Below are positions 1,047 to 51,879 of a DNA stretch of 64,000 nt, one piece after another. The position numbers and the translations under genes were made by a program. Numbering within the stretch: position 1 is the first letter of the stretch; every line of letters begins with the position of its first letter. The DNA is from a virus: IMG/VR virus record IMGVR_UViG_3300020473_000023, positions 42,285-106,284 of that record; one strand, 5' to 3'. Under the pieces are notes generated by a model, which saw only the letters and a program-made list of their open reading frames with translations, ran no database searches and had not been told where the DNA came from.

Positions 1047-1433
1047 TCAATCAACTTTTATATGTTCTTGCTCTGTAGTTTCAGCTTCTAGGTTATTTCT
1101 AACCCTCCCGGTTATTGCAGAACCCTTTGCGGCAGCAACTCCAAGCGGCTCTAATCCCAGAGCGCCTCTAACAATATCGTAAATTGAAGGAGAAAGCTTA
1201 TCTTTAAGAACAGCCATGTCTGCGTATTGGTGAAGATCCCACTCATATACGGGAACCTCTTCGCCCTCCAGCCCCGGTTCGTAATTTCCACTAGCACGAC
1301 TTTCAAATATAAATAGCATTCTGGGCATATCTTCACCCAGTGGAACCATTATAAAGGGTATCTGGGAAGATACACCCTCCTGAGACTCTTCATACATGAT
1401 CTCAGGAAACCAATTAGAAACTTTTTCTGTCAT
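1047..1433 (-). CDS. hypothetical protein
   Basis: 128 aa ORF with GGAGG RBS. Confidence 0.75.
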   Translation of the reverse strand: MTEKVSNWFPEIMYEESQEGVSSQIPFIMVPLGEDMPRMLFIFESRASGNYEPGLEGEEVPVYEWDLHQYADMAVLKDKLSPSIYDIVRGALGLEPLGVAAAKGSAITGRVRNNLEAETTEQEHIKVD

Positions 1434-1497: not shown

Positions 1498-2667
1498 CTA
1501 TAAAGCCGGCTCTGCTTCAAGGGGTCGAATTTGCTGCAGTGTTTCTTCATAGATTGGCTTTATTGCTACTAGGATTGCCTCTTGGACTTCGGGTGAATCA
1601 GAGGAAGTCTCGCTTACAATTCTATCAAGAGACCCCCCGATAACACCAGAAAAAATATCTGGAATTAAAACCCTTATTTGAGAAAATAAATCCTCAGACC
1701 CTGCCTGAATATCTTCGACAGTAACGTTTTCTCCAGTAATCTTTTTCACTCTTTGAGCAAGGACTTGCGGGGTAAAAGACCCTGATTCTCCGGGTTTTCC
1801 CATAAGAGAAGAAAGGCTTATAGCAAGTGAATTTAAATCTTGAGAAGACATGGCATCACGATACATTACCAATAGATTGTCCATGTCTAATCTGGCAGAA
1901 TTTGACAATTCAGAAACTACTTCTGGAACCTGTGACACATCAATCTGTGGCAGCACTTCTTGAGCTGGGTCAGGAAGTTCACCCAATCCATCATCAGGCT
2001 CTTGAAGGTCATCAATCTCTGGATCAACCTCAACGACTTCAGGATCTATTTGACTCTGATCAATGGGCTCTAGATCGACAAGAGGCTCATCTTCTAAGGG
2101 TGTAGCCAAGATAGTTTCTTGTGCCTCTTCCTCTTCCTCTGCAGCCGCCTCAATCGCATCGTCAACTATTTTATCTGCCTCTGCCTCTTCTCCAGCCCTA
2201 GCCTCATCTGCCTCTAATAAAAAATCAAGCGACATATTTTCAAGACTGAACGTATCAAGTGAATAGTGAATGCTTTCTGTTGCAAGGCCAGTTGTCTGAA
2301 GAATTCCTGGACGCTGCTGCGTACGCCCGAGAAAACCTCGTGCCTTTCTAAGTGTTGTAGCTTGATTGGTCACGATGCTTTCATAATCCGGAGTCCCACC
2401 CCCAAGAAGTCCCTTCATCCCTTCAGCACCTATCTTAAATACTGATTCAGCTCCCTTGTAGGCAGCAACACCAGCGTAAGCAAGAGATGAGACAACACCT
2501 ATGGCATGCCCTATTATCTTCTTAACAGAACCTATCCACCCAATAACGTCAGGCATAGTACCCACACCGACAGACTGACCGGCACGTCGGACGTCTCCTC
2601 GATCTTTTCGTTCAGCAATTAAAGACTCTCTAATAAACTGACGGATTAATTTTTCATTTGAGCTCAC
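1498..2667 (-). CDS. acidic hypothetical protein, probable virion protein
   Basis: long ORF; probable GTG start at 2667 after GGGAG; EKLIRQFIRESL motif; E/D/P-rich centre. Confidence 0.75.
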   Translation of the reverse strand: MSSNEKLIRQFIRESLIAERKDRGDVRRAGQSVGVGTMPDVIGWIGSVKKIIGHAIGVVSSLAYAGVAAYKGAESVFKIGAEGMKGLLGGGTPDYESIVTNQATTLRKARGFLGRTQQRPGILQTTGLATESIHYSLDTFSLENMSLDFLLEADEARAGEEAEADKIVDDAIEAAAEEEEEAQETILATPLEDEPLVDLEPIDQSQIDPEVVEVDPEIDDLQEPDDGLGELPDPAQEVLPQIDVSQVPEVVSELSNSARLDMDNLLVMYRDAMSSQDLNSLAISLSSLMGKPGESGSFTPQVLAQRVKKITGENVTVEDIQAGSEDLFSQIRVLIPDIFSGVIGGSLDRIVSETSSDSPEVQEAILVAIKPIYEETLQQIRPLEAEPAL

Positions 2668-2923
2668 CAAACAACTCCCTTCTCTCAGCAAGTGTTCTTA
2701 GGACAAGCCTAACACCTGTTAGATCATGATAATAATTAATCAGCTCCTGCTCAAAATTATTAAGCCACTGCTCCTTTGTCTTAGGGTCTCTGGTGGAAAA
2801 ATTCTTTCTAAGCCCTGAGGGTATTCCAAGCATGATCTGCTTCTTAATCATAACCCAGTCATCCATGTCGCCCGCGTAAGATGACACAAATTCAACTTGC
2901 TCCCTGATCCTGTCAGGAATCAT
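2654..2923 (-). CDS. hypothetical protein
   Basis: 89 aa ORF with ATGA overlap with the upstream gene. Confidence 0.7.
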   Translation of the reverse strand: MIPDRIREQVEFVSSYAGDMDDWVMIKKQIMLGIPSGLRKNFSTRDPKTKEQWLNNFEQELINYYHDLTGVRLVLRTLAERRELFGELK

Positions 2924-4395
2924 CTATTCATTCCCAGCAAGAGCATCTCTCTGACGAACTCTCTTAGGAGCGATTCCCGAATCTTATCATACATGACAAA
3001 TCCACTTTCTTGCCCTTGGGGCGACATCTGAACATCTCCAATTGTAATATCTTCCTTGTTAACAGCCCTAGCTGGATCAAGCATAACAGCAGCTTTTGCC
3101 CTATCTGCTATCACGATTTGAAATCTAAGGCCCATTATCGGCTTGACGGGAGATGATTCCGAGTCTCCAGCGGGAGGTGAAAGATATTTCTTAGGCCTTC
3201 CTGCAGAACCGGTTATAATTACTGTAGGTTTCTCATTTGGAGAGAGGTCATCAATAGAAGAGTAGACAGATCCAGGTATAGTGAGTGTTTTTGTGGATGG
3301 GTCCCATTCTCCTACGGGCTCATCGGCGTAATAGTCTCCTTTAAGGACAAGGTCTGCTCTATTTTCTCCAGACCCAAAGACAGCATGCTCCATAAACTCA
3401 GGACCCAAATACTCATCTGGAACTGTAAAGTTGGTTCTAATCTGTTGACCATCCTTTTCAACAACCATCTTAGAGCCCGCTTGATTTGGACCTGCTCCAA
3501 CTATCTTTGCTATTCCCCCACCGTCAACCTCGACTCCAGAACCTTCCAGGGCCTGAAGGAGCGGGCTTAGCAGGGGAAAGGACATGTCCGCAGAGAGCCA
3601 GTGACCAGCATTTATCATTTTCATGCTGACACCTATCTCACTCTCACCTCCGTTGTACACAATGTCGACATCACTCTTTGAGGTAACTCCGCCCTTCTTT
3701 TCTGTTCCGGCAGCCTTGGCGCTAATAACTCCCTTAAGTGACGTATTATTCTTGCCTTTCCGATCCAGAAAGACAACAGTTAAAGGATAATCTCGACCGA
3801 GATCCGACTCATACGGGGGAAGCCCTTGCACAGCAAGATTTATGTCATCAGTGACTCTTTCTTCGCTTATAATCCCTAGAGACTTCGAGCCTCCTGCCCC
3901 TTGGACCTTAAATGCAAGTTTTTGATGAGGTGTAATGTCATCTTTCCCTGTCTTTGTAAACTGGCCAAGAGATTTAACAAACTCAATTGGACCAAGGCCC
4001 TGTGGGCCTTGCATGACCTGAACTTTTATTCCTTGATTTTTCACCATTTTCTGGAGAGCCTGAGCCCCTGACTCTCTCTGCTCCTGGTCTTTTCCAGAAA
4101 TTAGTGAGAGGTTCTCAAGAAATGTAATTATCTCTCGATTGTGTGGATCATCTTTGAGAATTATACCTTGAATAAATTCTTCTGGATAAAGATCTCCGTC
4201 AATGGAAGCTTCTTTGCGAACGCTAATTGTAAAGTAGTCGCCTGTTCGGATCTTCTCCAGCATTATTAAAAATCTATCAGGCCTACCGGCACTGCTCTTT
4301 GGCTTTGATAGCTCTCCAGCAGTCAGCCCGACCCGATTGGCTTCTAGAAAAAGCTCTCTTATGTACTGTCTAAGAAGTGACTCAGAAATCATCAT
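2920..4395 (-). CDS. hypothetical protein with possible PD-(D/E)xK (K-x-D...S-x-K) nuclease-like motif
   Basis: 491 aa; SKSDVDIV...GVSMKM; ESLLRxxIRE-type motif at both termini. Confidence 0.6.
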   Translation of the reverse strand: MMISESLLRQYIRELFLEANRVGLTAGELSKPKSSAGRPDRFLIMLEKIRTGDYFTISVRKEASIDGDLYPEEFIQGIILKDDPHNREIITFLENLSLISGKDQEQRESGAQALQKMVKNQGIKVQVMQGPQGLGPIEFVKSLGQFTKTGKDDITPHQKLAFKVQGAGGSKSLGIISEERVTDDINLAVQGLPPYESDLGRDYPLTVVFLDRKGKNNTSLKGVISAKAAGTEKKGGVTSKSDVDIVYNGGESEIGVSMKMINAGHWLSADMSFPLLSPLLQALEGSGVEVDGGGIAKIVGAGPNQAGSKMVVEKDGQQIRTNFTVPDEYLGPEFMEHAVFGSGENRADLVLKGDYYADEPVGEWDPSTKTLTIPGSVYSSIDDLSPNEKPTVIITGSAGRPKKYLSPPAGDSESSPVKPIMGLRFQIVIADRAKAAVMLDPARAVNKEDITIGDVQMSPQGQESGFVMYDKIRESLLREFVREMLLLGMNR

Positions 4396-4431: not shown

Positions 4432-5241
4432 CTAAGACGTTCTTAATAGCGACTCATTAATATAGTTAGTCGCCCGTAGAGCCTCTCTGGGCATCTTTGA
4501 CTCATAGTCTGCAATGTAATTCATGCCCGTTGCACCTGTGACTCTGTCGCTGAATTCACGCAAAACAGGCCTAATTCGTGCGTCCTTTACACAGTAGTTA
4601 ACGAGACCCTTAAAGGTTCGGACATCTTCAGGTTGCGCCTTAAGCTTAAGGACCTTCATGATGTGCCGTGGACAGGTGATTCTACGCTCTAGAATCGGAC
4701 CCCTGCCTCGCTTAATCATCATCCCACCTGGATAGGCTATGGTAATCTTAACATCCTCTCCTGAAGATTCAGTAATCTCTCTAGATCGATCCTTAGCAAT
4801 CAGGCTAAGTAGAAGGTTTCTAAAGACACCCTTTACCTGGCCTCCCGACATAAGCCACGCAGTTCCGGAAGGATCTTGGCTTGTCATCACATCTATCTGA
4901 ACATGTTCATTTAATTGGGTGCCTCTAATTGGGTACCTGACTGAGACAATTGATCCAACCTTCTTAACTTGGTCTAGACCGAGAGACTCAGATAGATATT
5001 CAAACACCTCATGCTTAAAGTATTTTGGATCTAGATCTCCGCAGCCTACGACCACATCCATGTCACCCAGAAGCTGTGATGTTGATCTACTGTCTGTGCT
5101 TCCCAGTGGGTGGCACTCAGTTATTCCAAGCTGACTAAGGTAGTCATCCCTAAATGAGCATAGCGTCTCTTCAACGTTCTCTCGCCTAATCATTGTAACA
5201 GTTGGATTTCCAAAAGCGTCCCTAAAAACCTTACCACCCAT
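4432..5241 (-). CDS. DNA polymerase beta-superfamily nucleotidyltransferase
   Basis: LGS...GDMDVVV and VQIDVM acidic triad; start re-called at ATG 5241 (MGGKVF) with GAGGA RBS. Confidence 0.75.
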   Translation of the reverse strand: MGGKVFRDAFGNPTVTMIRRENVEETLCSFRDDYLSQLGITECHPLGSTDSRSTSQLLGDMDVVVGCGDLDPKYFKHEVFEYLSESLGLDQVKKVGSIVSVRYPIRGTQLNEHVQIDVMTSQDPSGTAWLMSGGQVKGVFRNLLLSLIAKDRSREITESSGEDVKITIAYPGGMMIKRGRGPILERRITCPRHIMKVLKLKAQPEDVRTFKGLVNYCVKDARIRPVLREFSDRVTGATGMNYIADYESKMPREALRATNYINESLLRTS

Positions 5242-6466
5242 GCCAGTAATCCTCTTCAAAAAATGTCTTTGTCCAGTAGGTCTTCTTGGCAAAAGTTATG
5301 GGATCTTTGCCATAGGAAAATAGGGCATTCAATCTATTGACCGGTGTGAACATGCCTACAAGTTTGGTCTCCCTTCCCTTCCACTCAAATACAAAACCCT
5401 CTGTGGATTTTTCAATTAAATCCTCATTGGTCTCAATGCACTTAAGAAGAATTCTAACCTCATCTATCTGATCAACTGTTCCTATCAGGCGACTATTAAC
5501 GAATGCCTCTCTGATAATTGTCATCCCTTTCTTAATCTGATCTGGGGGGTATGCTTCCAGCTTAAAGTCAATGGGTCTAAGAGTGATAGCGCCTATCTTC
5601 TGAATGGCATTATCAAATGGGATTCGGGCCTCTGCGACAATAAGCCTTCCTTTCTTTTGTAATTTTTTAAACTGATCCCAGGAGCCTGGCCTGCCATACT
5701 GCTTAAACTTTCCAGCAATCGGACCCTTGTTAAAGACGAGTCTTTTCGCTGCATCTCTTCTGATCTCAGGTGGAATAAAGGCGTACTTGGAGATGTGGGA
5801 CTCAACTAGAGAAACCACAAGATCTCCAATTGTGTGGTCGTCATTCAAATTATGCTCGACAAGAATCCCGCCGAGTTCGTCACAAATATCTATAATTTCT
5901 TGAAAAGATACGTCGGGCTTTTTAAGATCGACCTTATGTGGATGTCTAATGGGTATTGTTGTAGACGTTCTTGCGGCATCGGAGAGAAGCGCCCTATAGT
6001 TGTCATTGTCAACCTTGGCATCTCTCTCAAGATCCCACCCTTGAATAAAGTAAATTCCCGAGTCCTTATAGGGAATAGTGTTCATATTTTTTGGATCTAT
6101 TAGTGCAGTCTCAACAACAACAGTTCCATCTTTAAAGAATCCAGCGTGCCTCCTTGCAACATCTTTTAGGGAGGAATATGCATTTAGATACGCACGCCTT
6201 ACGCTTTCTTTCTCTTCAATATCGTATTTTTCACAAATCCCGCGCTCATTAAGGCCACCTGACCTGATCGAGGAGAGAGTCACGCCCTTGAAGAAAAACC
6301 TGAGTTCACCGTTTATGACGGTGAATGTAAGGTTTTGTCCATCCATTTTTTCAACTGGATTCTTAATCAACCGGGTGTCTGCAGTAAAAAATGCATCAAT
6401 CATTTCAAACAAATCACCAATTGGAAGATCTGTAAGCTCATAAATATTTTTAATATGTCCTCTCAT
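5231..6466 (-). CDS. RNA-ligase-like covalent nucleotidyltransferase
   Basis: motif I EKMDGQN, motif IV EGFV, motif V KLVG. Confidence 0.7.
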   Translation of the reverse strand: MRGHIKNIYELTDLPIGDLFEMIDAFFTADTRLIKNPVEKMDGQNLTFTVINGELRFFFKGVTLSSIRSGGLNERGICEKYDIEEKESVRRAYLNAYSSLKDVARRHAGFFKDGTVVVETALIDPKNMNTIPYKDSGIYFIQGWDLERDAKVDNDNYRALLSDAARTSTTIPIRHPHKVDLKKPDVSFQEIIDICDELGGILVEHNLNDDHTIGDLVVSLVESHISKYAFIPPEIRRDAAKRLVFNKGPIAGKFKQYGRPGSWDQFKKLQKKGRLIVAEARIPFDNAIQKIGAITLRPIDFKLEAYPPDQIKKGMTIIREAFVNSRLIGTVDQIDEVRILLKCIETNEDLIEKSTEGFVFEWKGRETKLVGMFTPVNRLNALFSYGKDPITFAKKTYWTKTFFEEDYWHGW

Positions 6467-7117
6467 CTAACCTCCGCAAAGCACTTTTAAAAATTCATCA
6501 GAAGACCTAATTCCATTATAATTAGTTTCAAACAGGAATGAAGGTACATAGTTTTTAACTGATTCTACATCTTTTTTAAGAACAGCCCTTCTTATAGCTG
6601 AGCCCCTGACCTTTACAAGATCTTCTATTTTCTTATTAGACAGAGTAGGGTAAAAATTTTTCATTGACATGGTCAATCTTTCAATATCTCCAGATGTAAA
6701 GAAAAGTCTATTATCCGACACAAGATTTCCAAAATACTTCTCTTCAAGGGGAGTTCCAATATATTTGGTAAACCTATGCTCATCATCCTCACCTGAATAT
6801 ACAGTTAACAGGTCGTTGCTATTTTTATCATTTTTAATTCTTTCAATTAGAAAAAATATCTCAACGAGAGGATTGGGAACACCTTTCTTAACAATGATCC
6901 TGTCTCCAAACATTTCATCTAATGAAGACTTAACAATATTAAAGATTCTCTCAGCCATCTCTTCTGTATAGAGAAAGTCCGAGTTTTTCTTTCTAGGTGA
7001 AACACCATAAAATAAATAAGTTATATCATTGTCATCCAGAGATAAAGATATTTTTGAAAAATGACCCGTTGTGAAAGGCTTGAACCCGCCTCCAAAGACA
7101 CCTATTTTCATTTTCAC
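6467..7117 (-). CDS. HIGH-superfamily cytidylyl/adenylyltransferase-like protein
   Basis: IGVFGGGFKPFTTGH N-terminal motif and VRGSAIR (SSTxIR-like) motif. Confidence 0.8.
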   Translation of the reverse strand: MKMKIGVFGGGFKPFTTGHFSKISLSLDDNDITYLFYGVSPRKKNSDFLYTEEMAERIFNIVKSSLDEMFGDRIIVKKGVPNPLVEIFFLIERIKNDKNSNDLLTVYSGEDDEHRFTKYIGTPLEEKYFGNLVSDNRLFFTSGDIERLTMSMKNFYPTLSNKKIEDLVKVRGSAIRRAVLKKDVESVKNYVPSFLFETNYNGIRSSDEFLKVLCGG

Positions 7118-7128
7118 ACCAGTATTTA

Positions 7129-7347
7129 TTAATCGTTCTTTTCTTCCAGCTCTCTTTCTGCCTTGTCAATTGCGCCCTTAAAAGAAGAATAGACAAATGA
7201 CCTTAGTTCATCATCTGTTATCTCTCTAAACTCAGAGATCTTCATTGACTTTCTAACAATATTATAAAATTCAGGCGTGCAATCTATCTCAAGATTTCCG
7301 CCATTTCGTAGCTTAATAGTTCTTTTTTCCATAAGCTTATTATACAA
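7129..7347 (-). CDS. hypothetical protein
   Basis: short ORF; true start probably MEKRTI downstream of the promoter. Confidence 0.65.
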   Translation of the reverse strand: MYNKLMEKRTIKLRNGGNLEIDCTPEFYNIVRKSMKISEFREITDDELRSFVYSSFKGAIDKAERELEEKND

Positions 7348-7366
7348 TATACTGTGCTATTTTACA
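7339..7366 (-). promoter_or_regulatory. putative sigma70-like early/middle promoter
   Basis: TGTAAA-N16-TATAAT. Confidence 0.6.
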
Positions 7367-7384
7367 TGAGTACGGCTTATAAAC

Positions 7385-8083
7385 CTAATTTCTCATCAGC
7401 TGCTTCAGCCGAGATCTAACTTCTGAAAGGTCTTGGCCGGCGCCCGCTTTAATTGGTGGAGATGTATCTTCTTCTCCCGGGGCAGGCTCTTCTTCTCTCC
7501 GATCTTCTTCGGGCTCTTCTTCAGATCCATCTGATTCTCCGCTAGATACATCAATAGAGGCTGGGGGTTCGGAGGGATCCTGGGCTTCTGTTCCTGAAAC
7601 TTGACTTCGCATGAGTTGGTCAACTGTAGCTAGATATCCGAGAAGAAGCTCTTTCTCACTATCATCTAGTCGGTCAAGCCACGCTTCCATGTCCTGCTTT
7701 ACTTCCTTTCCTTTGAGAGAGGGTGCAGCTCGAATATCATTAATCTGATCTCTGATCTTGTAATATGTTACGTCTGGAGATGTTTCAATCTGTTCTTCCT
7801 CGTCGCCTGCGGGCTCGGGTTCTCCCCCTTCTTCATCTCCTTCAGGCTCGGAGAGATCTGAGCCTTCTTCGTCAGCGGGAGGGTCTTCCCCTTCATCTTC
7901 TTCACCCGCTTCCTCTTCTTCCTGCTCTGATATCTCTCCGTACTTTCTAAGATCGTCTTGGATTCTTTTTGACATCGCCTCTTGGCGCTGTTTGAGAACA
8001 CCCTCCCTGCCTTCGCTCTCTTCTTGAAGAATTGTTAAGAAACTCTCAAGTTGAGATGCATTCCCTATTCTAAAGATGCTCAC
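7385..8083 (-). CDS. very acidic hypothetical protein (scaffold/internal-protein-like)
   Basis: 232 aa with long E/D/G/P tracts; GTGA overlap with the upstream gene. Confidence 0.75.
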   Translation of the reverse strand: MSIFRIGNASQLESFLTILQEESEGREGVLKQRQEAMSKRIQDDLRKYGEISEQEEEEAGEEDEGEDPPADEEGSDLSEPEGDEEGGEPEPAGDEEEQIETSPDVTYYKIRDQINDIRAAPSLKGKEVKQDMEAWLDRLDDSEKELLLGYLATVDQLMRSQVSGTEAQDPSEPPASIDVSSGESDGSEEEPEEDRREEEPAPGEEDTSPPIKAGAGQDLSEVRSRLKQLMRN

Positions 8084-8285: not shown

Positions 8286-8639
8286 TCAATCAAGACAAAT
8301 AGTCAACTCAACATTGTGATCATATGAAGATAAATTTACCTTAACGCCTGTGTTTTCTAAATTAATTTTCTCAAAGCTTAGCAAATTTAAGTCACCATGC
8401 TTAACGTACAGTGATCCTTTAAGATTGCCTCTCACAAGAAGCTTAACAAGCTCTGTTGTTGAATTAAATGAAATTTTAACTTTTTTTTCTGCTCTTGCAA
8501 ATTCATTAATTTCAAATGAAAATGCTCTGTTGTCAATAAAGATCTGACCAATGAACAAAGTGCTAGCGTCAGTTGCATCTCCAGATAAACATCTTGGATC
8601 AATCTTTCCTACAAGAGAGTCGCTCATCATAACAGTCAT
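8286..8639 (-). CDS. hypothetical protein
   Basis: 117 aa ORF, ATGA coupling with the upstream gene, GAGGA RBS. Confidence 0.7.
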   Translation of the reverse strand: MTVMMSDSLVGKIDPRCLSGDATDASTLFIGQIFIDNRAFSFEINEFARAEKKVKISFNSTTELVKLLVRGNLKGSLYVKHGDLNLLSFEKINLENTGVKVNLSSYDHNVELTICLD

Positions 8640-9064
8640 AGCTGATCCTCACCTTGCTGGTCGGAAATATAAAAGTCTTGAATATCTCTGTATAAATTGT
8701 CACAAAAGCCAGCCAGCTCTTTATCCAGCTCTGTAACCTCATTAACATTATGTGTATAAGTTTCAATCTTAACATCGCTACCTTCGATAATAATTCTGGC
8801 ATGATGTCCCATTTCCTCTTGCTCAAAGATTAAGTGTGTCACAAAATCTTTTACCATTCTAGGATCGTTAAAGGAAAACACCCGAGTTAATCTTTCAACC
8901 TCGCCGTCGCTTACAACCATCCACTCAGACCTGCTAACAGCAACAGGAAGCTCTCCGATCACACCGGGAGAAAGATTTCCTAAAATTGAATCTATTCCTT
9001 TCATTTTCATATCACTCTCCTCCTGCAAGATTGACCTTCCAACAACTTCTAAGAGTGACTGCAT
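8636..9064 (-). CDS. phhB: pterin-4-alpha-carbinolamine dehydratase with N-terminal extension
   Basis: LTRVFSF...EEMGHHA...YTHNVNEVTELDKELA matches the PCD signature. Confidence 0.8.
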   Translation of the reverse strand: MQSLLEVVGRSILQEESDMKMKGIDSILGNLSPGVIGELPVAVSRSEWMVVSDGEVERLTRVFSFNDPRMVKDFVTHLIFEQEEMGHHARIIIEGSDVKIETYTHNVNEVTELDKELAGFCDNLYRDIQDFYISDQQGEDQL

Positions 9065-25736: not shown

Positions 25737-26690
25737 TCACATAAAATTATTCTTCATTAAAAGAGCGTCGATGAGAACTCTTAGCTGGCTCGGGCCATAA
25801 TACATCTTGACGCCTTCAACACTTTCAAGCTCTGAATTGTATGAAGTAACGGGAGAAAGAGTTGAAACTCCGTGCTTGGCATATTCAGCGCTATGTTTGG
25901 CAGAATCATCAATAGCACATACAATTTTTCCAGAGTCAAAATATTCAGACTTAGTTAGCCATCTATACTTCTCAGCGCTAAAATCAACTCTGTGAAATTT
26001 TAACCCTGATTTGCTTAGCCACCTGTATGTATCATACTTACATTGAAGAACATCTCCTGGCCGAGCTGTTAAGAGTTGAATCCAGCATCCGCTATCATAA
26101 AAGTGATTTATAGTCTGTACGACACCTGTATCTACTGTGAGAGTTCTAAGCTTTCTTTCTGCCAAAAAGTCATCAAATACTTCTTCAGGATTTAGTCCGG
26201 CATCTCTAACTTCTGATGTAGTATAATACTCAGTAGACTCTCTGTCGACTAAAACGCCTCTCTCGGATTCAAGCCAGTCAATAAAGTTAGATCTAAAATG
26301 TGCAATCACATCATCAATATCAAATACAAGGACAGGCTGGCCCTCCCAGGCCTGAGATTCGATATGATATCTCATATGAAGAAACATGTCCTTATCTTCA
26401 AATGCGTCAGATAGAGATCCTGGGTCTATGTTCCAAAGATTTAAAATTGCAAGAAGATATCTAAAAACATCAACTGATTCGTATAGAATCTTTGAAGGAT
26501 CAGCAACGCTCCTAAGTCGTCTATGATCTTTAAAGTTAACTGCGCTTATTAGTTCAGAAACTTCGGCATGAAGAGCCAGGGCAAAAGATTTTGTCATCTC
26601 TTCTCTTTCACTATCTGACATATTTTCAGGTTTAAAAAAAAGATCAGAAAATTTATTTTGACGATTAAAGAAATAGTCTAAGTCTCTCAT
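25737..26690 (-). CDS. dimeric dUTPase/MazG-like domain fused to HAD 5'(3')-nucleotidase
   Basis: EVSEL...FKDH...YESVDVFRY N-term; FDIDDV, LTAR, K, IDD HAD motifs C-term. Confidence 0.8.
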   Translation of the reverse strand: MRDLDYFFNRQNKFSDLFFKPENMSDSEREEMTKSFALALHAEVSELISAVNFKDHRRLRSVADPSKILYESVDVFRYLLAILNLWNIDPGSLSDAFEDKDMFLHMRYHIESQAWEGQPVLVFDIDDVIAHFRSNFIDWLESERGVLVDRESTEYYTTSEVRDAGLNPEEVFDDFLAERKLRTLTVDTGVVQTINHFYDSGCWIQLLTARPGDVLQCKYDTYRWLSKSGLKFHRVDFSAEKYRWLTKSEYFDSGKIVCAIDDSAKHSAEYAKHGVSTLSPVTSYNSELESVEGVKMYYGPSQLRVLIDALLMKNNFM

Positions 26691-26706
26691 ATTTCCTCCT
26701 AGTTCA

Positions 26707-26734
26707 ATTATAACTTAGAAAGAAATAAAGTACA
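26707..26734 (-). promoter_or_regulatory. putative early/middle promoter
   Basis: TGTACT-N16-TATAAT, then AGGAGG RBS. Confidence 0.65.
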
Positions 26735-26741
26735 TGAGATA

Positions 26742-27113
26742 CTAATATCCTTCTGTCAACCTTTTGTGAATTACTTCGTCCTTTCTAGTATACTCTCTAA
26801 ACAAATCATCTGAGCTAAATCCTGTCATAATGAGAAGAGAGAAAAAGTAATTAAAGGCATCAACCATCTCTTCAAGAAACTTCTCTCTATCGAACCCAGA
26901 GATCTCAGTGACTCTATGCGGTTTCCAGTTTTTAAGATGCTGAAGGGCTTCGAACATTTCTTCGACACCCCTTAGAGCGACATCCCTGCAAATCTGCTGA
27001 TCCTCTTTTTTACTTAGGTCTAGAGGGGCGGTTGGAGTTGATCCGGGAATTTTTTCACCCAAAGATCTCATAAACAGCTCCCTCAGTTCAAACATAGAAT
27101 CAAGCTTGTCCAT
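26742..27113 (-). CDS. dimeric all-alpha dUTPase/dCTPase (T4 gp56-like)
   Basis: EEMFE...WKPH...EEMVD. Confidence 0.8.
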   Translation of the reverse strand: MDKLDSMFELRELFMRSLGEKIPGSTPTAPLDLSKKEDQQICRDVALRGVEEMFEALQHLKNWKPHRVTEISGFDREKFLEEMVDAFNYFFSLLIMTGFSSDDLFREYTRKDEVIHKRLTEGY

Positions 27114-27121
27114 CTAAAATA

Positions 27122-27361
27122 TCAACTCTCAACTAGAAGAGAGTCAACTGCGAGTGCTTCCGCGTCATCAAGCATTTTCTGAACTTGACCGTCTGATATT
27201 TCCCTATATTCACTTGTTAAAACAAGCTCCTCGTCATTCTCTTCAGAGGTGGTAACCTTAATCATTCTAAGGTGATCAACTACGTCTGTTCCGCTTAGGA
27301 TGGCCATTTGCAAAAGTTTTGCTACGTGGCTGATGACTTCATTTGAAAGTGTATAATTCAT
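27122..27361 (-). CDS. hypothetical protein
   Basis: 79 aa ORF, AGGAG RBS. Confidence 0.7.
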   Translation of the reverse strand: MNYTLSNEVISHVAKLLQMAILSGTDVVDHLRMIKVTTSEENDEELVLTSEYREISDGQVQKMLDDAEALAVDSLLVES

Positions 27362-27363
27362 AT

Positions 27364-28170
27364 TTACTCCTGTACTTCTGGAACCCAGTGGGTGGTTCTT
27401 CCATCTTTTGTTTTTTCTTTTATGACAGTGTTTCCGTGCGGATCTGTCTTTTGATTATAAACCAAAAACCTTTGACTGTATTCTCCTATCTCTCCTTCAA
27501 ATCCAGAATATGTACTAATTGTAGCACCTCCTGTATCATAGGACGCCCTTATTGTCTTCTTGATGCTTTCATTTAAAAGAATGATCTCTTGATCTGAGAG
27601 AGATTTGCATGCCCTGTGGGGTGAGATTTTTGAAATGTAAAGAGATTCTGCTTTAAGATAGTTTCCAACCCCGGATATCACAGACTGATCCATTACAGCT
27701 TGGGCAATTGTCTTTTTATTGCACGCTCTAATTCTTCTTAAAAAGTCATCATTCTTAACATCGTCATTTAGCATGTCAGGCCCTAGAGAGTTTAACTTAT
27801 TAATTAAAAGATCTTTTCCCCTTACAATCTTTAAAGTTCCAAAGTTTCTAATATCGTTAAAAAAAATAGACTCTCCGCCTAGACAAATCTTGACCCTTGA
27901 GTGCTTGTTGCGGGTTCCCGACCACGTCCCAGACATTCCCAGTGTATTCCAAATAGCCCATTCATTTTCAAGAATTATAAAGATAAACTTTCCATGACAC
28001 CCAGCACCTGCAATTTTCAATGGAAGTTCATGTAAAATACTATCAAAACCGTCGGGCGGACCGTGATTCTTATATCTACCAGATAAAATCTCAATGCCAT
28101 CTAGAGATTTCCCCCCAACTCTTTCAGCAAGAGATTCAGCAATTCTTCTAACTTCTGGGCCTTCTGGAAT
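27364..28170 (-). CDS. mutM: Fpg/Nei DNA glycosylase/AP lyase, ATT start codon
   Basis: ORF extends 50 codons upstream of the track call to ATT-CCA-GAA-GGC-CCA-GAA (PEGPE); GK, LGMSG, DIRNFG, H2TH GVGNYLKAE, GRTTHW. Confidence 0.92.
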   Translation of the reverse strand: MPEGPEVRRIAESLAERVGGKSLDGIEILSGRYKNHGPPDGFDSILHELPLKIAGAGCHGKFIFIILENEWAIWNTLGMSGTWSGTRNKHSRVKICLGGESIFFNDIRNFGTLKIVRGKDLLINKLNSLGPDMLNDDVKNDDFLRRIRACNKKTIAQAVMDQSVISGVGNYLKAESLYISKISPHRACKSLSDQEIILLNESIKKTIRASYDTGGATISTYSGFEGEIGEYSQRFLVYNQKTDPHGNTVIKEKTKDGRTTHWVPEVQE

Positions 28171-30489: not shown

Positions 30490-31059
30490 TTATTTAATCA
30501 TATTTCTAATTAGATTTCTTATCTGATTTTCAGATAAATCTTTCATACTAACTTCATCACGCTTAGAAGCGTTTTTCCTTTCAGCCAGCTTCTCTCTTTT
30601 TTGAGAAGGAGGTGGTTTAACGACCTTGACGACAGGAGGATGACTTCCTGTCTCACTTATTAGGCTTCCAGCTGTGGGTGACTTCCCTCCTTTCCTTACT
30701 GTGGTTCCAATAAGCTGAGCCGACGCAGATCTAACGGGTCTTTTCTTTCTACTAACTGCTTCAGCTGTCACCCTTACTGACTTTTCAAAGTTAACTTCAA
30801 GCTCAAGTGGGACAAAGACTCGGTCATCAACTATAACTTCTAATCCAGAATTATAAGAGCCCTCTCTTAAAACTTTTTCAAGCGGGGGTACAGTAACATT
30901 GACTGTGCCGTCTCTCTCTATTTCTCCTGGAAAGGCAAAAGACATTTCTTGACCTTCAATCAAAAATCTGCAGGATGGATGAGCGGGAGAGCTCCCCTCG
31001 ATATTTACCTGAAATGTTATTTCATTATTGTTGTCTAAAGATAGATCTATGGAGCTCAT
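30490..31059 (-). CDS. hypothetical protein, probable virion protein
   Basis: beta-rich N-terminus; C-terminal LSENQIRNLIRNMIK motif; ATAGTTAT upstream. Confidence 0.7.
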   Translation of the reverse strand: MSSIDLSLDNNNEITFQVNIEGSSPAHPSCRFLIEGQEMSFAFPGEIERDGTVNVTVPPLEKVLREGSYNSGLEVIVDDRVFVPLELEVNFEKSVRVTAEAVSRKKRPVRSASAQLIGTTVRKGGKSPTAGSLISETGSHPPVVKVVKPPPSQKREKLAERKNASKRDEVSMKDLSENQIRNLIRNMIK

Positions 31060-50076: not shown

Positions 50077-51879
50077 TTAATAGCTTTTTACCGGATAGGT
50101 CATCCAAGCCTTAGATCTCTTACCGCCTCCGAAGCCTCTCTCATTTGCATAGATCGACCTTTCTCGAGCTTGATGGTCGTGATCTATTCCTGCATCAGGG
50201 CCAGTTCCAAGGGGAGTTACAGGTCCACCTCCACCTGCTGCTGCACCGCTTGCCTCTTCTACCTCATCGTCATCTTTTTTTTTTAATTTCTTTGAATCAT
50301 CTTTTGCATCAAGAATTTTCTTCGCCTCCTCGCGAATAATTCTTCTAAGCGCCTGCTCCTCAAGACTTCCGGGAATTGTCCTCACGGGCCTGGCAGAATA
50401 AGCCGAATAGCCGTCGTCTCCCTTGTAGGAGACAATATATTCATCTGATATATCTTCTCTCTCTTCTTGCTCTTCAGAAGATATGTACTCTTGACCATAA
50501 GGTAGGACGTCACTAGGAAGATATCCTGGACCGCCGTGTCTGCTTGGAAGCTCTTCTGTAACCTCTTCTTCCTTTGCTTCTCTAATCATCTCTCTGATAA
50601 AAGTTCTCAATGTTGATTCTGACATTCCTAAATTCCTCATTATCATATTATATCTATTCTCAAGAAGCTGAAACCTTGCTTCTGAAATTGGGCAAGCACA
50701 CCCCTCTGCCTCCGGAAAGCTCACCTCATCACCTGGCATCACCGGGACAGCCGGCTCTATGCCTCCTTCAGCATCAGGATTGTCTGCTTCTAGATCGGGC
50801 TCATCTTCCTCTATTTCTGCCCTTGCTTCATCAGAAATCGGCAACTCTTCAACGATACAAAGTGAAGTATCTCCATCCAGTGCAGTGTATAGAGAGCCTA
50901 GCCTTGAAAGTGAAAGAGAGGGCATTTGCCTAACAGCAGAAAAAACCGGACCAAACCCAGACTCTAGTCGACTCATCGCCTCTCCAAACTTTGGAGAGAC
51001 TGATTCAATATTCTGTGACACCTCTAATGCTCCAGAAAGCATCTGTGCTAATCTTGAAGATAGGCTAAATATAAGACGCTCTATTGGAAGTGTTCGAACA
51101 AAAAATCCAGAAAGTCCTGAGATGAAATTCACTGCAGGAAGAGTTGCGGGTTCATCGCCGGGTATGGGAATTGCAACTAGTGCAAATACGGAGTCGTATG
51201 CTTGAACTATTGTTACAATTGCATCTTTAAGGGCAGTTAGGAATTCTCTAAAGCGAGATCTTGACTCGAGTCTGATTGCTGGATCCAGGTTGCAAATATT
51301 CTGAATTATCTGGATCATCGGTCCATCTGACGGCTCTATCAATGATGATGAAAGGATTTCTGGATCGACACCTATTAAATCACACATCTCTTCAATGGCA
51401 ACTCTTCCAGCCTCTGCCTCCCTATCTAGAATCATCTTTCCAAGAAGGAGGTCAACGCCTGGAACCGAAAGCCCGAGGCTTTTTGCTGCATCTTCGACAA
51501 ATCCTGGTAAAAATCCCTCCTTCAGCGGGTTAAGTTTTTCCTGTCTTCGTCTAGGTCTCATTCCCAGTGAATAGAGAGGGAGCTTTCCTGTCCTTAAAAA
51601 GAAATCATCATCTTCAAAGTCTTCATCGTCAACCTGGGTTGGAAACATCGGTTCTGCACATGAATCGTCTTCAAACCCCCTGTTGACTCTTCCAATCCCA
51701 TCGATAGAAGAAAATCCACTATCAGCGCTCATTGAAGGTTGACCTGATGATCCTGTATATTTGTATCTTCGAGGTCTTCCAAGATATTGAGATCCGTCAG
51801 ATGTAGCAGAGGGTCCTGATGGAACCTTTATTCCGTGACTAGAATAGTACCCAGTCTTACTCTCGCCATTATCTTTCAC
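50077..51879 (-). CDS. hypothetical protein, probable virion protein
   Basis: 600 aa; SESTLRTFIREMI and EEQALRRIIREE motifs; ATATTTAT immediately upstream. Confidence 0.75.
   Translation of the reverse strand: MKDNGESKTGYYSSHGIKVPSGPSATSDGSQYLGRPRRYKYTGSSGQPSMSADSGFSSIDGIGRVNRGFEDDSCAEPMFPTQVDDEDFEDDDFFLRTGKLPLYSLGMRPRRRQEKLNPLKEGFLPGFVEDAAKSLGLSVPGVDLLLGKMILDREAEAGRVAIEEMCDLIGVDPEILSSSLIEPSDGPMIQIIQNICNLDPAIRLESRSRFREFLTALKDAIVTIVQAYDSVFALVAIPIPGDEPATLPAVNFISGLSGFFVRTLPIERLIFSLSSRLAQMLSGALEVSQNIESVSPKFGEAMSRLESGFGPVFSAVRQMPSLSLSRLGSLYTALDGDTSLCIVEELPISDEARAEIEEDEPDLEADNPDAEGGIEPAVPVMPGDEVSFPEAEGCACPISEARFQLLENRYNMIMRNLGMSESTLRTFIREMIREAKEEEVTEELPSRHGGPGYLPSDVLPYGQEYISSEEQEEREDISDEYIVSYKGDDGYSAYSARPVRTIPGSLEEQALRRIIREEAKKILDAKDDSKKLKKKDDDEVEEASGAAAGGGGPVTPLGTGPDAGIDHDHQARERSIYANERGFGGGKRSKAWMTYPVKSY

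What the first reader, a model, noticed from the sequence alone, without database searches (positions are those of the whole stretch)
4432..7117. Operon of three nucleotidyltransferases from three unrelated folds (HIGH, ligase-type KxDG, Pol-beta)
Seen: three translationally coupled genes downstream of one promoter (7339-7366). They are a HIGH-like cytidylyltransferase (FKPFTTGH), a covalent ligase-like NTase (EKMDG/EGFV/KLVG) with a long helical insertion, and a Pol-beta NTase (GS, DMD, QID). Known: Pol-beta NTases include CCA-adding enzymes and cyclic-oligonucleotide synthases, Rnl ligases seal broken tRNA, and HIGH enzymes make NAD/CoA/CDP-activated metabolites. Inference: a dedicated relay, for example anti-anticodon-nuclease RNA repair, NAD rebuilding against NAD-depleting defences, or synthesis of a decoy signalling nucleotide. 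I know of no assigned function for this combination.
Basis: partly seen in the sequence, partly recalled or inferred. Interest (0 to 1): 0.82.

Follow-up and report, generated by a model that had tools for sequence, protein, structure and literature searches.

The report
Phage nucleotidyltransferase, ligase, mini-polymerase X trio
Three coupled genes of an uncultured marine giant phage encode a cytidylyltransferase-type enzyme, an RNA-ligase-shaped enzyme and a miniature DNA-polymerase-X-like enzyme; many other phages carry them as neighbours or as one fused protein, so they probably form an uncharacterised kit that fills and seals broken nucleic acid.

Summary
On the minus strand lie g1 (6467-7111, 214 aa), g2 (5231-6466, 411 aa) and g3 (4432-5241, 269 aa). 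g1 is a HIGH/cytidylyltransferase-like nucleotidyltransferase. g2 has an OB-less RNA-ligase fold, with KxDG, EGxV and K motifs and a roughly 190-residue helical insertion. g3 is a palm-plus-thumb enzyme closest to family X DNA polymerases; it is not closest to CCA-adding enzymes or cyclic-oligonucleotide synthases.

The g1 stop abuts the g2 start, and g2 and g3 overlap by 11 nt. The claimed promoter belongs to a recurring phage promoter class, RTGTAA-N17-TATAAT. That motif occurs 11 times on the coding strand of the contig against 0.125 expected.

The refutation test failed in the finding's favour. In relatives the three parts are adjacent or fused as g1+g2, g2+g3, g1+g2+g3 and g2+g1. The g2 family is distantly related to Pfam DUF6267, which sits beside a 'cytidylyltransferase' gene in cyanomyoviruses.

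I read the trio as a fill-and-seal unit for nucleic-acid ends. The role of g1 is unresolved. Relatives carry T4-like head-targeting helices at the module boundaries; g1 and g2 here do not.

No function is assigned in the literature I could search. This scan has already found the same module in at least seven other genomes.

The parts
7339..7367 (-). Phage promoter of the class RTGTAA-N17-TATAAT (ATGTAA...TATAAT). The ATG of the next ORF lies 6 nt after the TATAAT.
   Evidence: The 106-kb contig has 11 such sites on the coding strand and none on the other strand, against 0.125 expected by chance. The sequence itself was read. The generic sigma-70 scan did not flag this site.
7129..7332 (-). Small conserved ORF (67 aa from ATG 7332), the first gene after the promoter. 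Function unknown.
   Evidence: Homologues stand at the same position just upstream of g1 in 6 related loci. No Pfam or PHROG family matched.
6467..7111 (-). g1: HIGH-motif, cytidylyltransferase-like nucleotidyltransferase (214 aa). Motifs are GGFKPFTTGH and RGSxxR.
   Evidence: The invariant columns are listed. In the ESM Atlas, feature scores of 0.95 and TM-scores of 0.73-0.83 point to viral CTP_transf_like and Citrate_ly_lig clusters. Sequence hits to NaMNAT, PPAT and NMNAT at the HIGH motif are only weak. The family has 439 representatives at E<=1e-3.
5231..6466 (-). g2: OB-less ATP-dependent RNA-ligase-type nucleotidyltransferase (411 aa). It has motif I (EKMDG, K40), motif IV (EGFVF) and motif V (K368). 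An all-alpha insertion spans about residues 155-350.
   Evidence: The AF2 model has pLDDT 86.8. Foldseek ranks RNA ligases first at probability 1.0. VIA-align gives Z 9.0 to NgrRnl and to T4 Rnl1 over 173-187 residues. PF09414 matches 8 of 13 family members, best E 3e-6. The whole fold matches 714-944-aa viral 'cytidyltransferase-like' fusion proteins at TM 0.69-0.73.
4432..5241 (-). g3: minimal family-X-like polymerase (269 aa) with palm and thumb only. Motifs are GS...GDMD and QID. The C-terminus ends in ESLLRTS, a truncated copy of the terminal helix tag.
   Evidence: The AF2 model has pLDDT 88. Foldseek ranks Pol beta and Pol lambda first, E 1.5e-6, TM 0.5. The VIA-align wide search gives Pol beta Z 11.9 over 181 aa, Thermus PolX 11.0, TdT 10.6 and ASFV Pol X 10.0 over 162 of 176 aa. 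D60, D62 and D117 are invariant in 18 domains.
2920..4395 (-). Downstream tagged protein (491 aa) carrying the LLRxxIRE helix at both ends. It occupies the variable slot that in relatives holds a C-terminal extension of the fused enzyme. A nuclease identity is only a lead.
   Evidence: The tags were found. The only homologue is in the closest locus, L009. The ESM Atlas points to the HaeIII, MspI and HinP1I families only at 0.86-0.87, below the tool's 0.9 bar. No Pfam, PHROG or PDB sequence match was found.
1498..2691 (-). Second downstream tagged protein (397 aa; the N-terminus contains EKLIRQFIRESL). Function unknown.
   Evidence: The tag was found. No family matched. The only homologue is in L009.

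Best explanation
The three genes encode one conserved, phage-specific multi-enzyme unit that works on broken nucleic-acid ends, most likely nicked or gapped duplex, with the phage's own DNA as my first guess.

Proposed steps:
- g3, a palm-plus-thumb family-X-like polymerase, adds the missing nucleotide or nucleotides to a 3'-OH.
- g2, a ligase-type enzyme with the lysine nucleophile, is adenylylated, activates the 5'-phosphate as AppN and seals the nick. Its helical insertion stands in for the missing OB or C-terminal clamp domain.
- g1, a HIGH-motif transferase, performs the same chemistry as NMN adenylyltransferase, moving an NMP from an NTP onto a phosphate. I infer that it serves the ligase step, either by making or regenerating a dinucleotide-type AMP donor, or by forming or reversing 5'-adenylylated ends.

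What is shown: the folds, the intact catalytic residues, the coupling, the promoter, and the adjacency and fusion in relatives.

What is inferred: the substrate, the order of steps and the role of g1.

In relatives the modules are bounded by T4-capsid-targeting-like helices, so there the enzymes may be carried in the head and delivered with the DNA. In this phage g1 and g2 lack such helices, and the operon sits behind a promoter class shared with other non-structural genes.
For: Folds:
- g2 matches RNA ligases.
- g3 matches family X polymerases over palm and thumb.
- g1 matches viral cytidylyltransferase-like clusters.

Catalytic residues are invariant across homologues down to about 30% identity.

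Fusions:
- g2+g3 in P0013-P0017.
- g1+g2+g3 in L004 (933 aa), L015-L017 and six representatives.
- g1+g2 in 10 of the 174 g1-family proteins checked, also in loci L013/L014.
- The reversed order g2+g1 in one.
- Microcystis phage Mel-JY01 fuses a PF01467 domain to a g2-like domain.

Conservation:
- Synteny holds across 11 or more IMG/VR loci.
- S-SZBM1 gp141 is DUF6267 (E 3.7e-130). It carries KWDG and EGFV...KLV motifs, aligns to the g2 family around motif I (hhalign E 2.8e-4), and abuts the cytidylyltransferase gp140.
- DUF6267 occurs in 464 phage records.

Precedents:
- RNA ligases working with Pol-beta-fold RlaP enzymes that restore lost nucleotides (PMC12776372, PMC7824862).
- From my own knowledge, ASFV Pol X working with the ASFV ligase, and bacterial LigD.

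No other ATP- or NAD-dependent DNA ligase domain was found in the 106-kb fragment that holds dnaE, dnaB and the ribonucleotide reductase (RNR) gene.
Against: - No activity has been measured for any member.
- g3 lacks the 8-kDa lyase and fingers parts of cellular family X enzymes, and it has no sequence-level match to them.
- The nearest structural relatives of g2 are RNA ligases, not DNA ligases, and it lacks an OB domain.
- Known polymerase-ligase repair systems need no HIGH transferase, so the role of g1 is a guess.
- End-healing enzymes (kinase, phosphatase, AP endonuclease) were not recognised beside the trio.
- The genome record is only about 40% complete, so the absence of another ligase proves nothing.
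Confidence: 0.5

Rival explanations
1. RNA repair. The unit restores host or phage tRNA or mRNA cut by anticodon nucleases or other RNase defences. g3 would act like RlaP, adding back one or two lost nucleotides to the RNA 3' end. g2 would join the RNA ends as T4 Rnl1 does. g1 would modify or activate an RNA end.
For: - The closest solved structures to g2 are RNA ligases: Rnl5, Rnl1, Rnl2, Rnl3 and Trl1.
- PF09414 matches relatives of g2.
- The pairing of an RNA ligase with a Pol-beta-fold NTase is a described theme in jumbo phages and bacteria (PMC7824862). RlaP has been shown to add 1-2 NMPs to damaged RNA (PMC12776372).
Against: - g3 does not match RlaP (PF10127) in Pfam.
- g3 is structurally closest to templated family X DNA polymerases, including their thumb.
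- No polynucleotide kinase, phosphatase or 2H phosphoesterase was recognised in the operon or in the fused proteins.
- The window holds no tRNA genes.
Confidence: 0.25
2. Small-molecule pathway. The three enzymes build or rebuild a nucleotide metabolite and act on no polynucleotide. Candidates are NAD+ rebuilt against NAD-depleting defences, or another dinucleotide or signalling or decoy molecule.
For: - g1 resembles NMNAT, NaMNAT and PPAT at the HIGH motif.
- The ESM Atlas lists a NadD-HD cluster at TM 0.60.
- One of 30 scanned g1-like proteins matches the Thoeris-inhibitor (Tad3) family.
- Phage NAD+ reconstitution pathways exist (Osterman 2024, cited in PMC12801897).
Against: - Ligase-fold and family-X-fold enzymes characteristically act on polynucleotide ends.
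- The thumb of g3 and the large helical insertion of g2 look like nucleic-acid-binding additions.
- None of the known NARP1 or NARP2 enzymes (Adps, Namat, Nampt) is present.
- The matches of g1 to NMNAT are not significant (E 0.04-0.1).
Confidence: 0.1
3. The genes are unrelated neighbours or decayed enzymes, and their adjacency here has no functional meaning.
For: None of the three window proteins reaches a Pfam gathering score.
Against: - Catalytic residues are invariant.
- The parts are fused repeatedly and in different orders.
- Synteny is conserved.
- The AF2 models are confident.
Confidence: 0.02

Closest known systems
Cyanomyovirus gene pair DUF6267 (PF19782) + 'cytidylyltransferase' (for example Synechococcus phage S-SZBM1 gp141 and gp140)
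   Same: - A ligase-motif protein (KWDG, EGFV, KLV) sits next to, or is fused with, a PF01467 HIGH transferase.
- The pair is found only in phages and has no assigned function.
- hhalign links gp141 to the g2 family around motif I and the NTIxY strand.
- gp140 was detected in purified virions (PMC9146016), and its N-terminus MRFRQFIIEA resembles the tag seen here.
   Different: - g2 and its 12 aligned relatives do not match the DUF6267 model, so g2 belongs to a sister family.
- The cyanophage set has no recognisable family-X-like partner. gp142 lacks the GS...DxD motif.
RNA ligase + RlaP (RNA-ligase-associated Pol-beta NTase, PF10127) RNA repair systems, including T4 Rnl and NrdC.11
   Same: A covalent-lysine RNA-ligase-fold enzyme is genomically coupled to a Pol-beta-fold enzyme that can restore missing nucleotides before sealing (PMC12776372, PMC7824862).
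   Different: - g3 is not a PF10127 member and is closest to family X polymerases with a thumb.
- Here the two parts are fused in relatives, and a HIGH transferase is an obligatory third part.
- No kinase or phosphatase partner is present.
African swine fever virus Pol X (174 aa) with the ASFV DNA ligase (viral base-excision repair)
   Same: - Both have a minimal palm-plus-thumb family X polymerase without the lyase domain. The g3 model aligns to 162 of 176 residues of 5hr9 at Z 10.0.
- That polymerase is paired with a virus-encoded ligase. ASFV ligase chains also appear among the g2 matches at Z 6.5-7.1.
   Different: - The ASFV ligase is a DNA ligase with an OB domain, whereas g2 is OB-less and RNA-ligase-like.
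- ASFV has no HIGH transferase partner and no gene fusion.
- The hosts are eukaryotic.
Bacterial LigD (ligase, polymerase and phosphoesterase in one NHEJ protein)
   Same: Polymerase and ligase domains are fused in one polypeptide for fill-and-seal repair of broken ends. This comparison rests on my own knowledge.
   Different: - The LigD polymerase has the archaeo-eukaryotic primase fold, not family X.
- The LigD ligase has an OB domain.
- LigD has no HIGH transferase.
T4 capsid targeting sequence of internal proteins (MKTYQEFIAE, cleaved after Glu by gp21)
   Same: Relatives of g1, g2 and g3, and the two genes just downstream here, carry terminal helices of the type LLRQYIRE, LIRQFIRE or LREYVRE. 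These often end in I/V-R-E. The comparison with T4 is from my own knowledge.
   Different: - The tag occurs at C-termini and at domain junctions as well as at N-termini.
- g1 and g2 of this window have none.
- Neither packaging nor cleavage has been measured for this lineage.

Membership tests
Covalent nucleotidyltransferases / ATP-dependent RNA ligases (Rnl, PF09414) | Motif I KxDG with the lysine nucleophile | tested here: met
   EKMDGQN is present. K40, D42 and G43 are invariant in 13 sequences down to 30% identity.
Covalent nucleotidyltransferases / ATP-dependent RNA ligases (Rnl, PF09414) | Motifs IV (EGxx) and V (lysine) on the C-terminal strands of the NTase core | tested here: met
   E356, G357, V359, F360 and K368 are invariant. 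In the model they lie on strands 357-362 and 365-370.
Covalent nucleotidyltransferases / ATP-dependent RNA ligases (Rnl, PF09414) | Nucleotidyltransferase fold shared with solved ligases | tested here: met
   Foldseek gives probability 1.0 to 2vug, T4 Rnl1 and NgrRnl. VIA-align gives Z 9.0, rmsd 3.5-4.2, over 173-187 residues. Z is moderate because of the insertion.
Covalent nucleotidyltransferases / ATP-dependent RNA ligases (Rnl, PF09414) | Score over Pfam's gathering cut-off | tested here: not met
   The window protein has no Pfam hit at E<=1. A search of its own genome gives 12.6 bits against a cut-off of 27. Eight of 13 relatives match with a best E of 3e-6.
Covalent nucleotidyltransferases / ATP-dependent RNA ligases (Rnl, PF09414) | Formation of enzyme-AMP and sealing of 3'-OH/5'-P ends | not testable with these tools
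   This needs biochemistry.
DUF6267 (PF19782) | Match to the family model | tested here: not met
   No PF19782 hit for g2 or for any of its 12 aligned relatives. S-SZBM1 gp141 matches at 3.7e-130.
DUF6267 (PF19782) | Detectable homology to a bona fide member | tested here: inconclusive
   hhalign of gp141 against the g2 alignment gives E 2.8e-4 and probability 41% over 111 columns that include KxDG and NTIxY. The motif IV and V strings are shared.
DUF6267 (PF19782) | Adjacency or fusion to a PF01467 HIGH transferase | tested here: met
Family X DNA polymerases | GS...DxD plus a third carboxylate on the palm | tested here: met
   D60, D62 and D117 are invariant and G47 is nearly so. From memory, the local string resembles the GS...SGDMD segment of Pol beta.
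Family X DNA polymerases | Palm plus thumb architecture | tested here: met
   The wide VIA-align search gives Pol beta Z 11.9 over 181 aa (chain residues 139-338), Thermus PolX 11.0, TdT 10.6, Pol lambda 10.6 and ASFV Pol X 10.0 over 162 aa. Other Pol-beta-fold families align over only about 100 aa.
Family X DNA polymerases | 8-kDa lyase domain and helix-hairpin-helix fingers | tested here: not met
   The model is 269 aa and aligns from Pol beta residue about 139 onward. ASFV Pol X also lacks these parts.
Family X DNA polymerases | Sequence-level family match (PF14792 or PDB profile search) | tested here: not met
   There is no Pfam hit. One relative matches PF14792 at E 0.076. The profile search against PDB sequences gave only spurious repeat hits.
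HIGH / cytidylyltransferase-like nucleotidyltransferases (PF01467, PF08218) | (H/T)xGH motif after the first strand | tested here: met
   The string is GGFKPFTTGH, with G10-H19 invariant or nearly so.
HIGH / cytidylyltransferase-like nucleotidyltransferases (PF01467, PF08218) | C-terminal ISxxxxR-type motif | tested here: met
   The string is VRGSAIRR. G172 and R176 are invariant and R171 is nearly invariant. Calling this equivalent to ISSTxxR is my inference.
HIGH / cytidylyltransferase-like nucleotidyltransferases (PF01467, PF08218) | Rossmann-like fold of the family | tested here: inconclusive
The ESM Atlas's own model (pTM 0.85) matches viral PF01467 and PF08218 clusters at TM 0.73-0.83, with feature scores of 0.95.
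HIGH / cytidylyltransferase-like nucleotidyltransferases (PF01467, PF08218) | Score over Pfam's gathering cut-off | tested here: not met
   The only hit is PF08218 at E 0.096, 12.8 bits against a cut-off of 20.9. Among more distant g1-family proteins, 12 of 30 match PF08218 and 6 of 30 match PF01467.
RlaP (PF10127) | Match to the family model | tested here: not met
   g3 has no hit at E<=1.
   CdnE, CdnD and CCA enzyme chains align at Z 6.5-9.2. The alignments are either only about 100 residues long or have rmsd above 7 A, and they rank below eight family X entries.
T4-type capsid-targeted (head-packaged) proteins | Terminal targeting helix on g1, g2 and g3 of this window | tested here: not met
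   The termini of g1 and g2 carry no such motif. g3 ends in a truncated ESLLRTS. Relatives and the downstream ORFs do carry the motif.

The most novel reading that the evidence does not exclude
The module is a self-contained repair machine. In many phages it would travel in the capsid and act on the incoming genome. In this reading the HIGH transferase is mechanistically coupled to the ligase. It could either hand the ligase a dinucleotide AMP donor or directly form or reverse 5'-adenylylated ends. That coupling would make sealing independent of host ligase and of the host NAD+/ATP state, and so would counter host defences that nick DNA, excise bases or deplete NAD+. For cyanomyoviruses, the DUF6267-type enzyme would then be their long-missing ligase.
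Probability: 0.15. Interest if true: 0.85.

Novelty: new variant of a known kind. Interest (0 to 1): 0.62.

Why it matters
A ligase-like gene beside a cytidylyltransferase-like gene is a very common uncharacterised pair in marine phages. DUF6267 alone occurs in 464 deposited phage genomes, mostly cyanomyoviruses.

This window shows the pair with a third partner, a polymerase-X-like enzyme. Natural fusions tie all three together. That turns a vague 'auxiliary metabolic gene' annotation (glycerol-3-phosphate cytidylyltransferase, cell-wall synthesis) into a concrete, testable hypothesis about repair of nucleic-acid ends.

If confirmed, it would add three things:
- a new class of OB-less ligase carrying an internal helical domain;
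- a bacterial-virus counterpart of the ASFV Pol X and ligase system;
- an unprecedented role for a HIGH-family transferase in polynucleotide repair.

The natural single-chain fusions would also be attractive as compact fill-and-seal enzymes.

Tried and rejected
Searches that gave nothing useful:
- Pfam and PHROGs on the three proteins and six neighbours gave nothing significant.
- PDB sequence searches with single sequences and with profiles gave only sub-threshold HIGH-motif hits for g1. They gave nothing for g2, and spurious matches to designed PPR repeat proteins for the g3 profile.
- blastn of the region against deposited phages found no match.
- tblastn of g1 and g3 against deposited phages found no match.
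- A scan of 185,579 prokaryotic species genomes for g2 relatives found only two short MAG fragments, so no cellular context was gained.
- Literature searches for 'DUF6267' and for a phage RNA ligase/polymerase X fusion found nothing. One further search was unproductive.

Ideas tested and not supported:
- Mel-JY01's 212-aa gene downstream of its fusion is not g3-like.
- S-SZBM1 gp139 and gp142 are not convincingly g2-like or g3-like.
- ORF491 shows no similarity to S-SZBM1 gp142 or to any PDB sequence. Iterated searches did not link it to the C-terminal extensions of the fused enzymes. Its nuclease identity therefore stays an untested lead.

Other points:
- The generic sigma-70 scan found promoter-like sites only at chance level and missed the real promoter class.
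- The metatranscriptome evidence is two 151-nt contigs inside g2 in one RNA library. This does not establish transcription, because DNA carry-over is possible.
- I considered a programmed frameshift joining g2 and g3 and set it aside. The shift needed is +1 or -2, there is no slippery site that I could see, and the split with separate starts is conserved in many 411-aa and 269-aa homologues.

Full report
WHAT IS THERE

The window is part of a 106-kb fragment of an uncultured marine phage, about 40% complete by CheckV. Nearly all genes lie on the minus strand. They include a DnaE-type polymerase, a DnaB helicase and a ribonucleotide reductase.

The finding covers three minus-strand genes:
- g1: 6467-7111, 214 aa. 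The true start is ATG 7111, by comparison with homologues.
- g2: 5231-6466, 411 aa.
- g3: 4432-5241, 269 aa. The true start is ATG 5241.

The g1 stop and the g2 start abut as TAGATG, preceded by GGAGG. The g3 start lies 11 nt inside the end of g2. Contigs from other marine metagenome samples cross that overlap without a single difference, so the split is real.

THE PROMOTER

A generic sigma-70 scan did not pick it out. However, the pattern RTGTA[AC]-N15-19-TATAAT occurs 11 times on the coding strand of the 106-kb contig, always with a 17-nt spacer. It never occurs on the other strand, and 0.125 sites are expected by chance. Each site is followed within a few to about 25 nt by a start codon. 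It is therefore a genuine phage promoter class.

A conserved 67-aa ORF (7332-7129) lies between the promoter and g1. No terminator-like site separates g3 from the next genes.

WHAT THE THREE PROTEINS ARE

None of them reaches a Pfam or PHROG threshold.

g1:
- It carries GGFKPFTTGH and RGSxxR, both invariant in its family.
- The ESM Atlas holds the protein with a confident model (pTM 0.85). It places g1 by features (0.95) and by structure (TM 0.73-0.83) among viral cytidylyltransferase-like and citrate-lyase-ligase-like clusters.
- Sequence matches to NaMNAT, PPAT and NMNAT are limited to the HIGH motif and are not significant.

g2:
- The model is confident (pLDDT 86.8).
- Its best matches are ATP-dependent RNA ligases. 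Foldseek gives probability 1.0 to an archaeal Rnl3 and to T4 Rnl1. VIA-align gives Z 9.0 to Naegleria NgrRnl and to T4 Rnl1 over 173-187 residues.
- Eight of 13 family members match PF09414, with a best E of 3e-6.
- Motif I (K40), EGxVF (E356, G357) and K368 are invariant.
- Residues about 155-350 form an all-alpha insertion inside the nucleotidyltransferase core. There is no OB domain.

g3:
- The model is confident (pLDDT 88).
- Every one of the first 50 Foldseek matches is Pol beta or Pol lambda (E about 1e-6, TM about 0.5).
- In a Foldseek-independent search of 48,161 chains, the first eight entries are all family X polymerases: Pol beta Z 11.9 over 181 residues, Thermus PolX 11.0, TdT 10.6, Pol lambda 10.6 and ASFV Pol X 10.0 over 162 of its 176 residues.
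- TUTases, CD-NTases, poly(A) polymerases and CCA-adding enzymes share only the core of about 100 residues.
- The three carboxylates (D60, D62, D117) are invariant in 18 divergent domains.
- g3 is thus a palm-plus-thumb mini-polymerase of the ASFV Pol X type. It has no lyase or fingers part and no sequence-level family match.

DO THEY BELONG TOGETHER?

The result is the opposite.

- Distant homologues of g2 (653-719 aa) contain g3 as their C-terminal half, at 38-41% identity.
- Of 35 IMG/VR loci that encode a g2 relative, the architectures include:
  - a 933-aa g1+g2+g3 fusion (L004);
  - 1365-1562-aa proteins with all three parts plus a further extension (L015-L017);
  - g1+g2 followed by a separate g3 (L013, L014);
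  - a separate g1 followed by g2+g3 plus an extension (L003, L010);
  - all three parts separate (L005-L007, L009).
- A profile search with g1 against 1.84 billion representative proteins found a small family: 439 at E<=1e-3 and 48 at E<=1e-30.
- Among the 174 g1-family proteins then checked locally, six are g1+g2+g3 fusions, ten are g1+g2, one is g2+g1 and one is g1+DUF6267.
- More distant large proteins (1100-1430 aa) again combine a g2-like domain with a PF01467 domain in varying order.
- The cultured Microcystis phage Mel-JY01 has a 639-aa 'cytidylyltransferase like protein'. It consists of a PF01467 domain followed by a g2-like domain.
- The whole g2 fold, insertion included, matches viral 'cytidyltransferase-like' proteins of 714-944 aa at TM 0.69-0.73.
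- No relative was found in 185,579 prokaryotic species genomes apart from two MAG fragments. The family appears to be viral.

LINK TO A KNOWN BUT UNCHARACTERISED PAIR

In Synechococcus phage S-SZBM1 the annotated cytidylyltransferase gp140 (PF01467) is preceded by gp141. gp141 is a full-length DUF6267 protein (E 3.7e-130). It has KWDG and EGFV...KLV strings. It aligns to the g2 family over the motif I region and the NTIxY strand (hhalign E 2.8e-4, probability 41%).

DUF6267 occurs in 464 deposited phage genomes, mainly cyanomyoviruses, and is often annotated next to a 'cytidyltransferase'. g2 itself does not match the DUF6267 model. I therefore treat it as a sister family. Published cyanophage papers call the HIGH gene a glycerol-3-phosphate cytidylyltransferase with an unclear role (PMC9146016, PMC6918029).

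TERMINAL HELICES

Relatives carry a short amphipathic motif exactly at the module boundaries:
- at the C-terminus of g1 (for example ...LRRAIRAMIMVG);
- at the N-terminus of g2 (MMIRQLIREMLML);
- at the C-terminus of g3;
- at the g1|g2 junction and the C-terminus of the L004 fusion;
- at the junction between g3 and the extension in L010 and L015.

In this genome the same motif sits on several other proteins:
- both ends of the 491-aa protein just downstream of g3;
- the N-terminus of the next large protein (397 aa);
- the N-termini of two proteins upstream of the window;
- the C-terminus of a 189-aa protein;
- an internal site in a 600-aa protein.

Typical forms are LLRQYIRE, LIRQFIRE and LREYVRE. 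From my own knowledge these resemble the T4 capsid targeting sequence MKTYQEFIAE, with its L/I-x-E cleavage site. S-SZBM1 gp140 begins MRFRQFIIEA and was detected in purified virions by mass spectrometry (PMC9146016).

This suggests that in many phages the module is loaded into the head. In this window g1 and g2 have no such helix and g3 keeps only ESLLRTS, so I do not claim packaging here.

The slot after g3 is variable. It holds ORF491 and ORF397 here, and unrelated C-terminal extensions elsewhere.

MECHANISM

A family-X-like polymerase fused to a ligase is the logic of fill-and-seal repair. Precedents are ASFV Pol X with the ASFV ligase, bacterial LigD, and RNA ligase with RlaP (PMC12776372, PMC7824862).

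I therefore commit, at about 0.5, to a unit that extends a 3'-OH and seals the resulting nick. Duplex DNA is my first guess because g3 has a thumb like templated polymerases. In addition, the 106-kb fragment holding the replication genes shows no other ligase domain. That last point is weak, because the genome is incomplete.

RNA repair is the main rival, at 0.25, because the nearest solved relatives of g2 are RNA ligases.

The HIGH transferase is the unexplained part. Its family transfers an NMP onto a phosphate, and the A-pp-N product is chemically the same linkage as the ligase's AppN intermediate. I infer that it supports the ligase step through donor synthesis, or through adenylylation or de-adenylylation of ends. 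Nothing here tests that.

A purely metabolic role such as NAD+ rebuilding is possible but less likely, at 0.1.

OCCURRENCE

The stretch is present at 99-100% identity in marine metagenomes of several studies. It is present in diverged form in runs up to 2025. One metatranscriptome holds two short contigs inside g2, which is not proof of transcription.

EARLIER NOTES OF THIS SCAN

After I had reached the reading above, a look-up showed that this scan has met the same module in at least seven other genomes. Follow-up agents there reached similar readings: a PolX, DUF6267-type ligase and NMNAT-like trio, and head-loading tags. These are unchecked AI notes and not independent evidence. My own tests agree with them.

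Noticed in passing
window 2920-4395, 1498-2691, 30490-31059, 50077-51879; genome C1:25231-26130 and 26653-27450 (L037): A shared amphipathic motif of the type L[LI]R[EQ][YF][IV]RE sits at the N- or C-termini of at least six otherwise unrelated, unannotated proteins, and once at an internal position. It resembles the T4 capsid targeting sequence and its L/I-x-E cleavage site. It may mark head-packaged proteins or a common docking helix.
   Followed up: partly
window 7367-7339, 26735-26707, 52533-52505 and eight sites upstream of the window (genome C1:3989-39021): A phage-specific promoter class, RTGTA[AC]-N17-TATAAT. It has 11 sites, all on the coding strand, against 0.125 expected. Each site lies just upstream of a start codon, and some have leaders of only 6 nt. 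Its temporal class and the sigma factor that reads it are unknown.
   Followed up: partly
window 2920-4395: The 491-aa protein downstream of g3 has the tag helix at both ends. The ESM Atlas gives a weak lead (0.86-0.87, below the tool's 0.9 bar) to MspI, HinP1I and HaeIII-type restriction nucleases. It contains a D...SxK string. No sequence or structure test supported the nuclease reading.
   Followed up: partly
alignment A6 (30 g1-like proteins): One g1-like HIGH transferase protein also matches PF25185 (Tad3, an inhibitor of the Thoeris sensor ThsB) at E 3.9e-32, and another matches a Toprim domain.
   Followed up: no
window 7385-8083: A highly acidic 232-aa protein, with long runs of E, D and G. 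It is conserved at this position, two genes upstream of g1, in 11 related loci. Function unknown.
   Followed up: no
window 8636-9064: A 142-aa protein with a pterin-4a-carbinolamine dehydratase domain (PF01329, E 5e-14). It is conserved in 11 related loci upstream of the module.
   Followed up: no
L002-L017 versus window 1498-4395: The position right after g3 and before a conserved 89-aa ORF (window 2654-2923) is a variable slot. It holds unrelated C-terminal extensions of 300-600 aa in the fused enzymes of other phages, and two lineage-specific tagged proteins here.
   Followed up: partly
window 1047-1433: A 128-aa protein that is unusually well conserved (56-73% identity) across 11 otherwise divergent loci. 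It has no Pfam or PHROG family.
   Followed up: no
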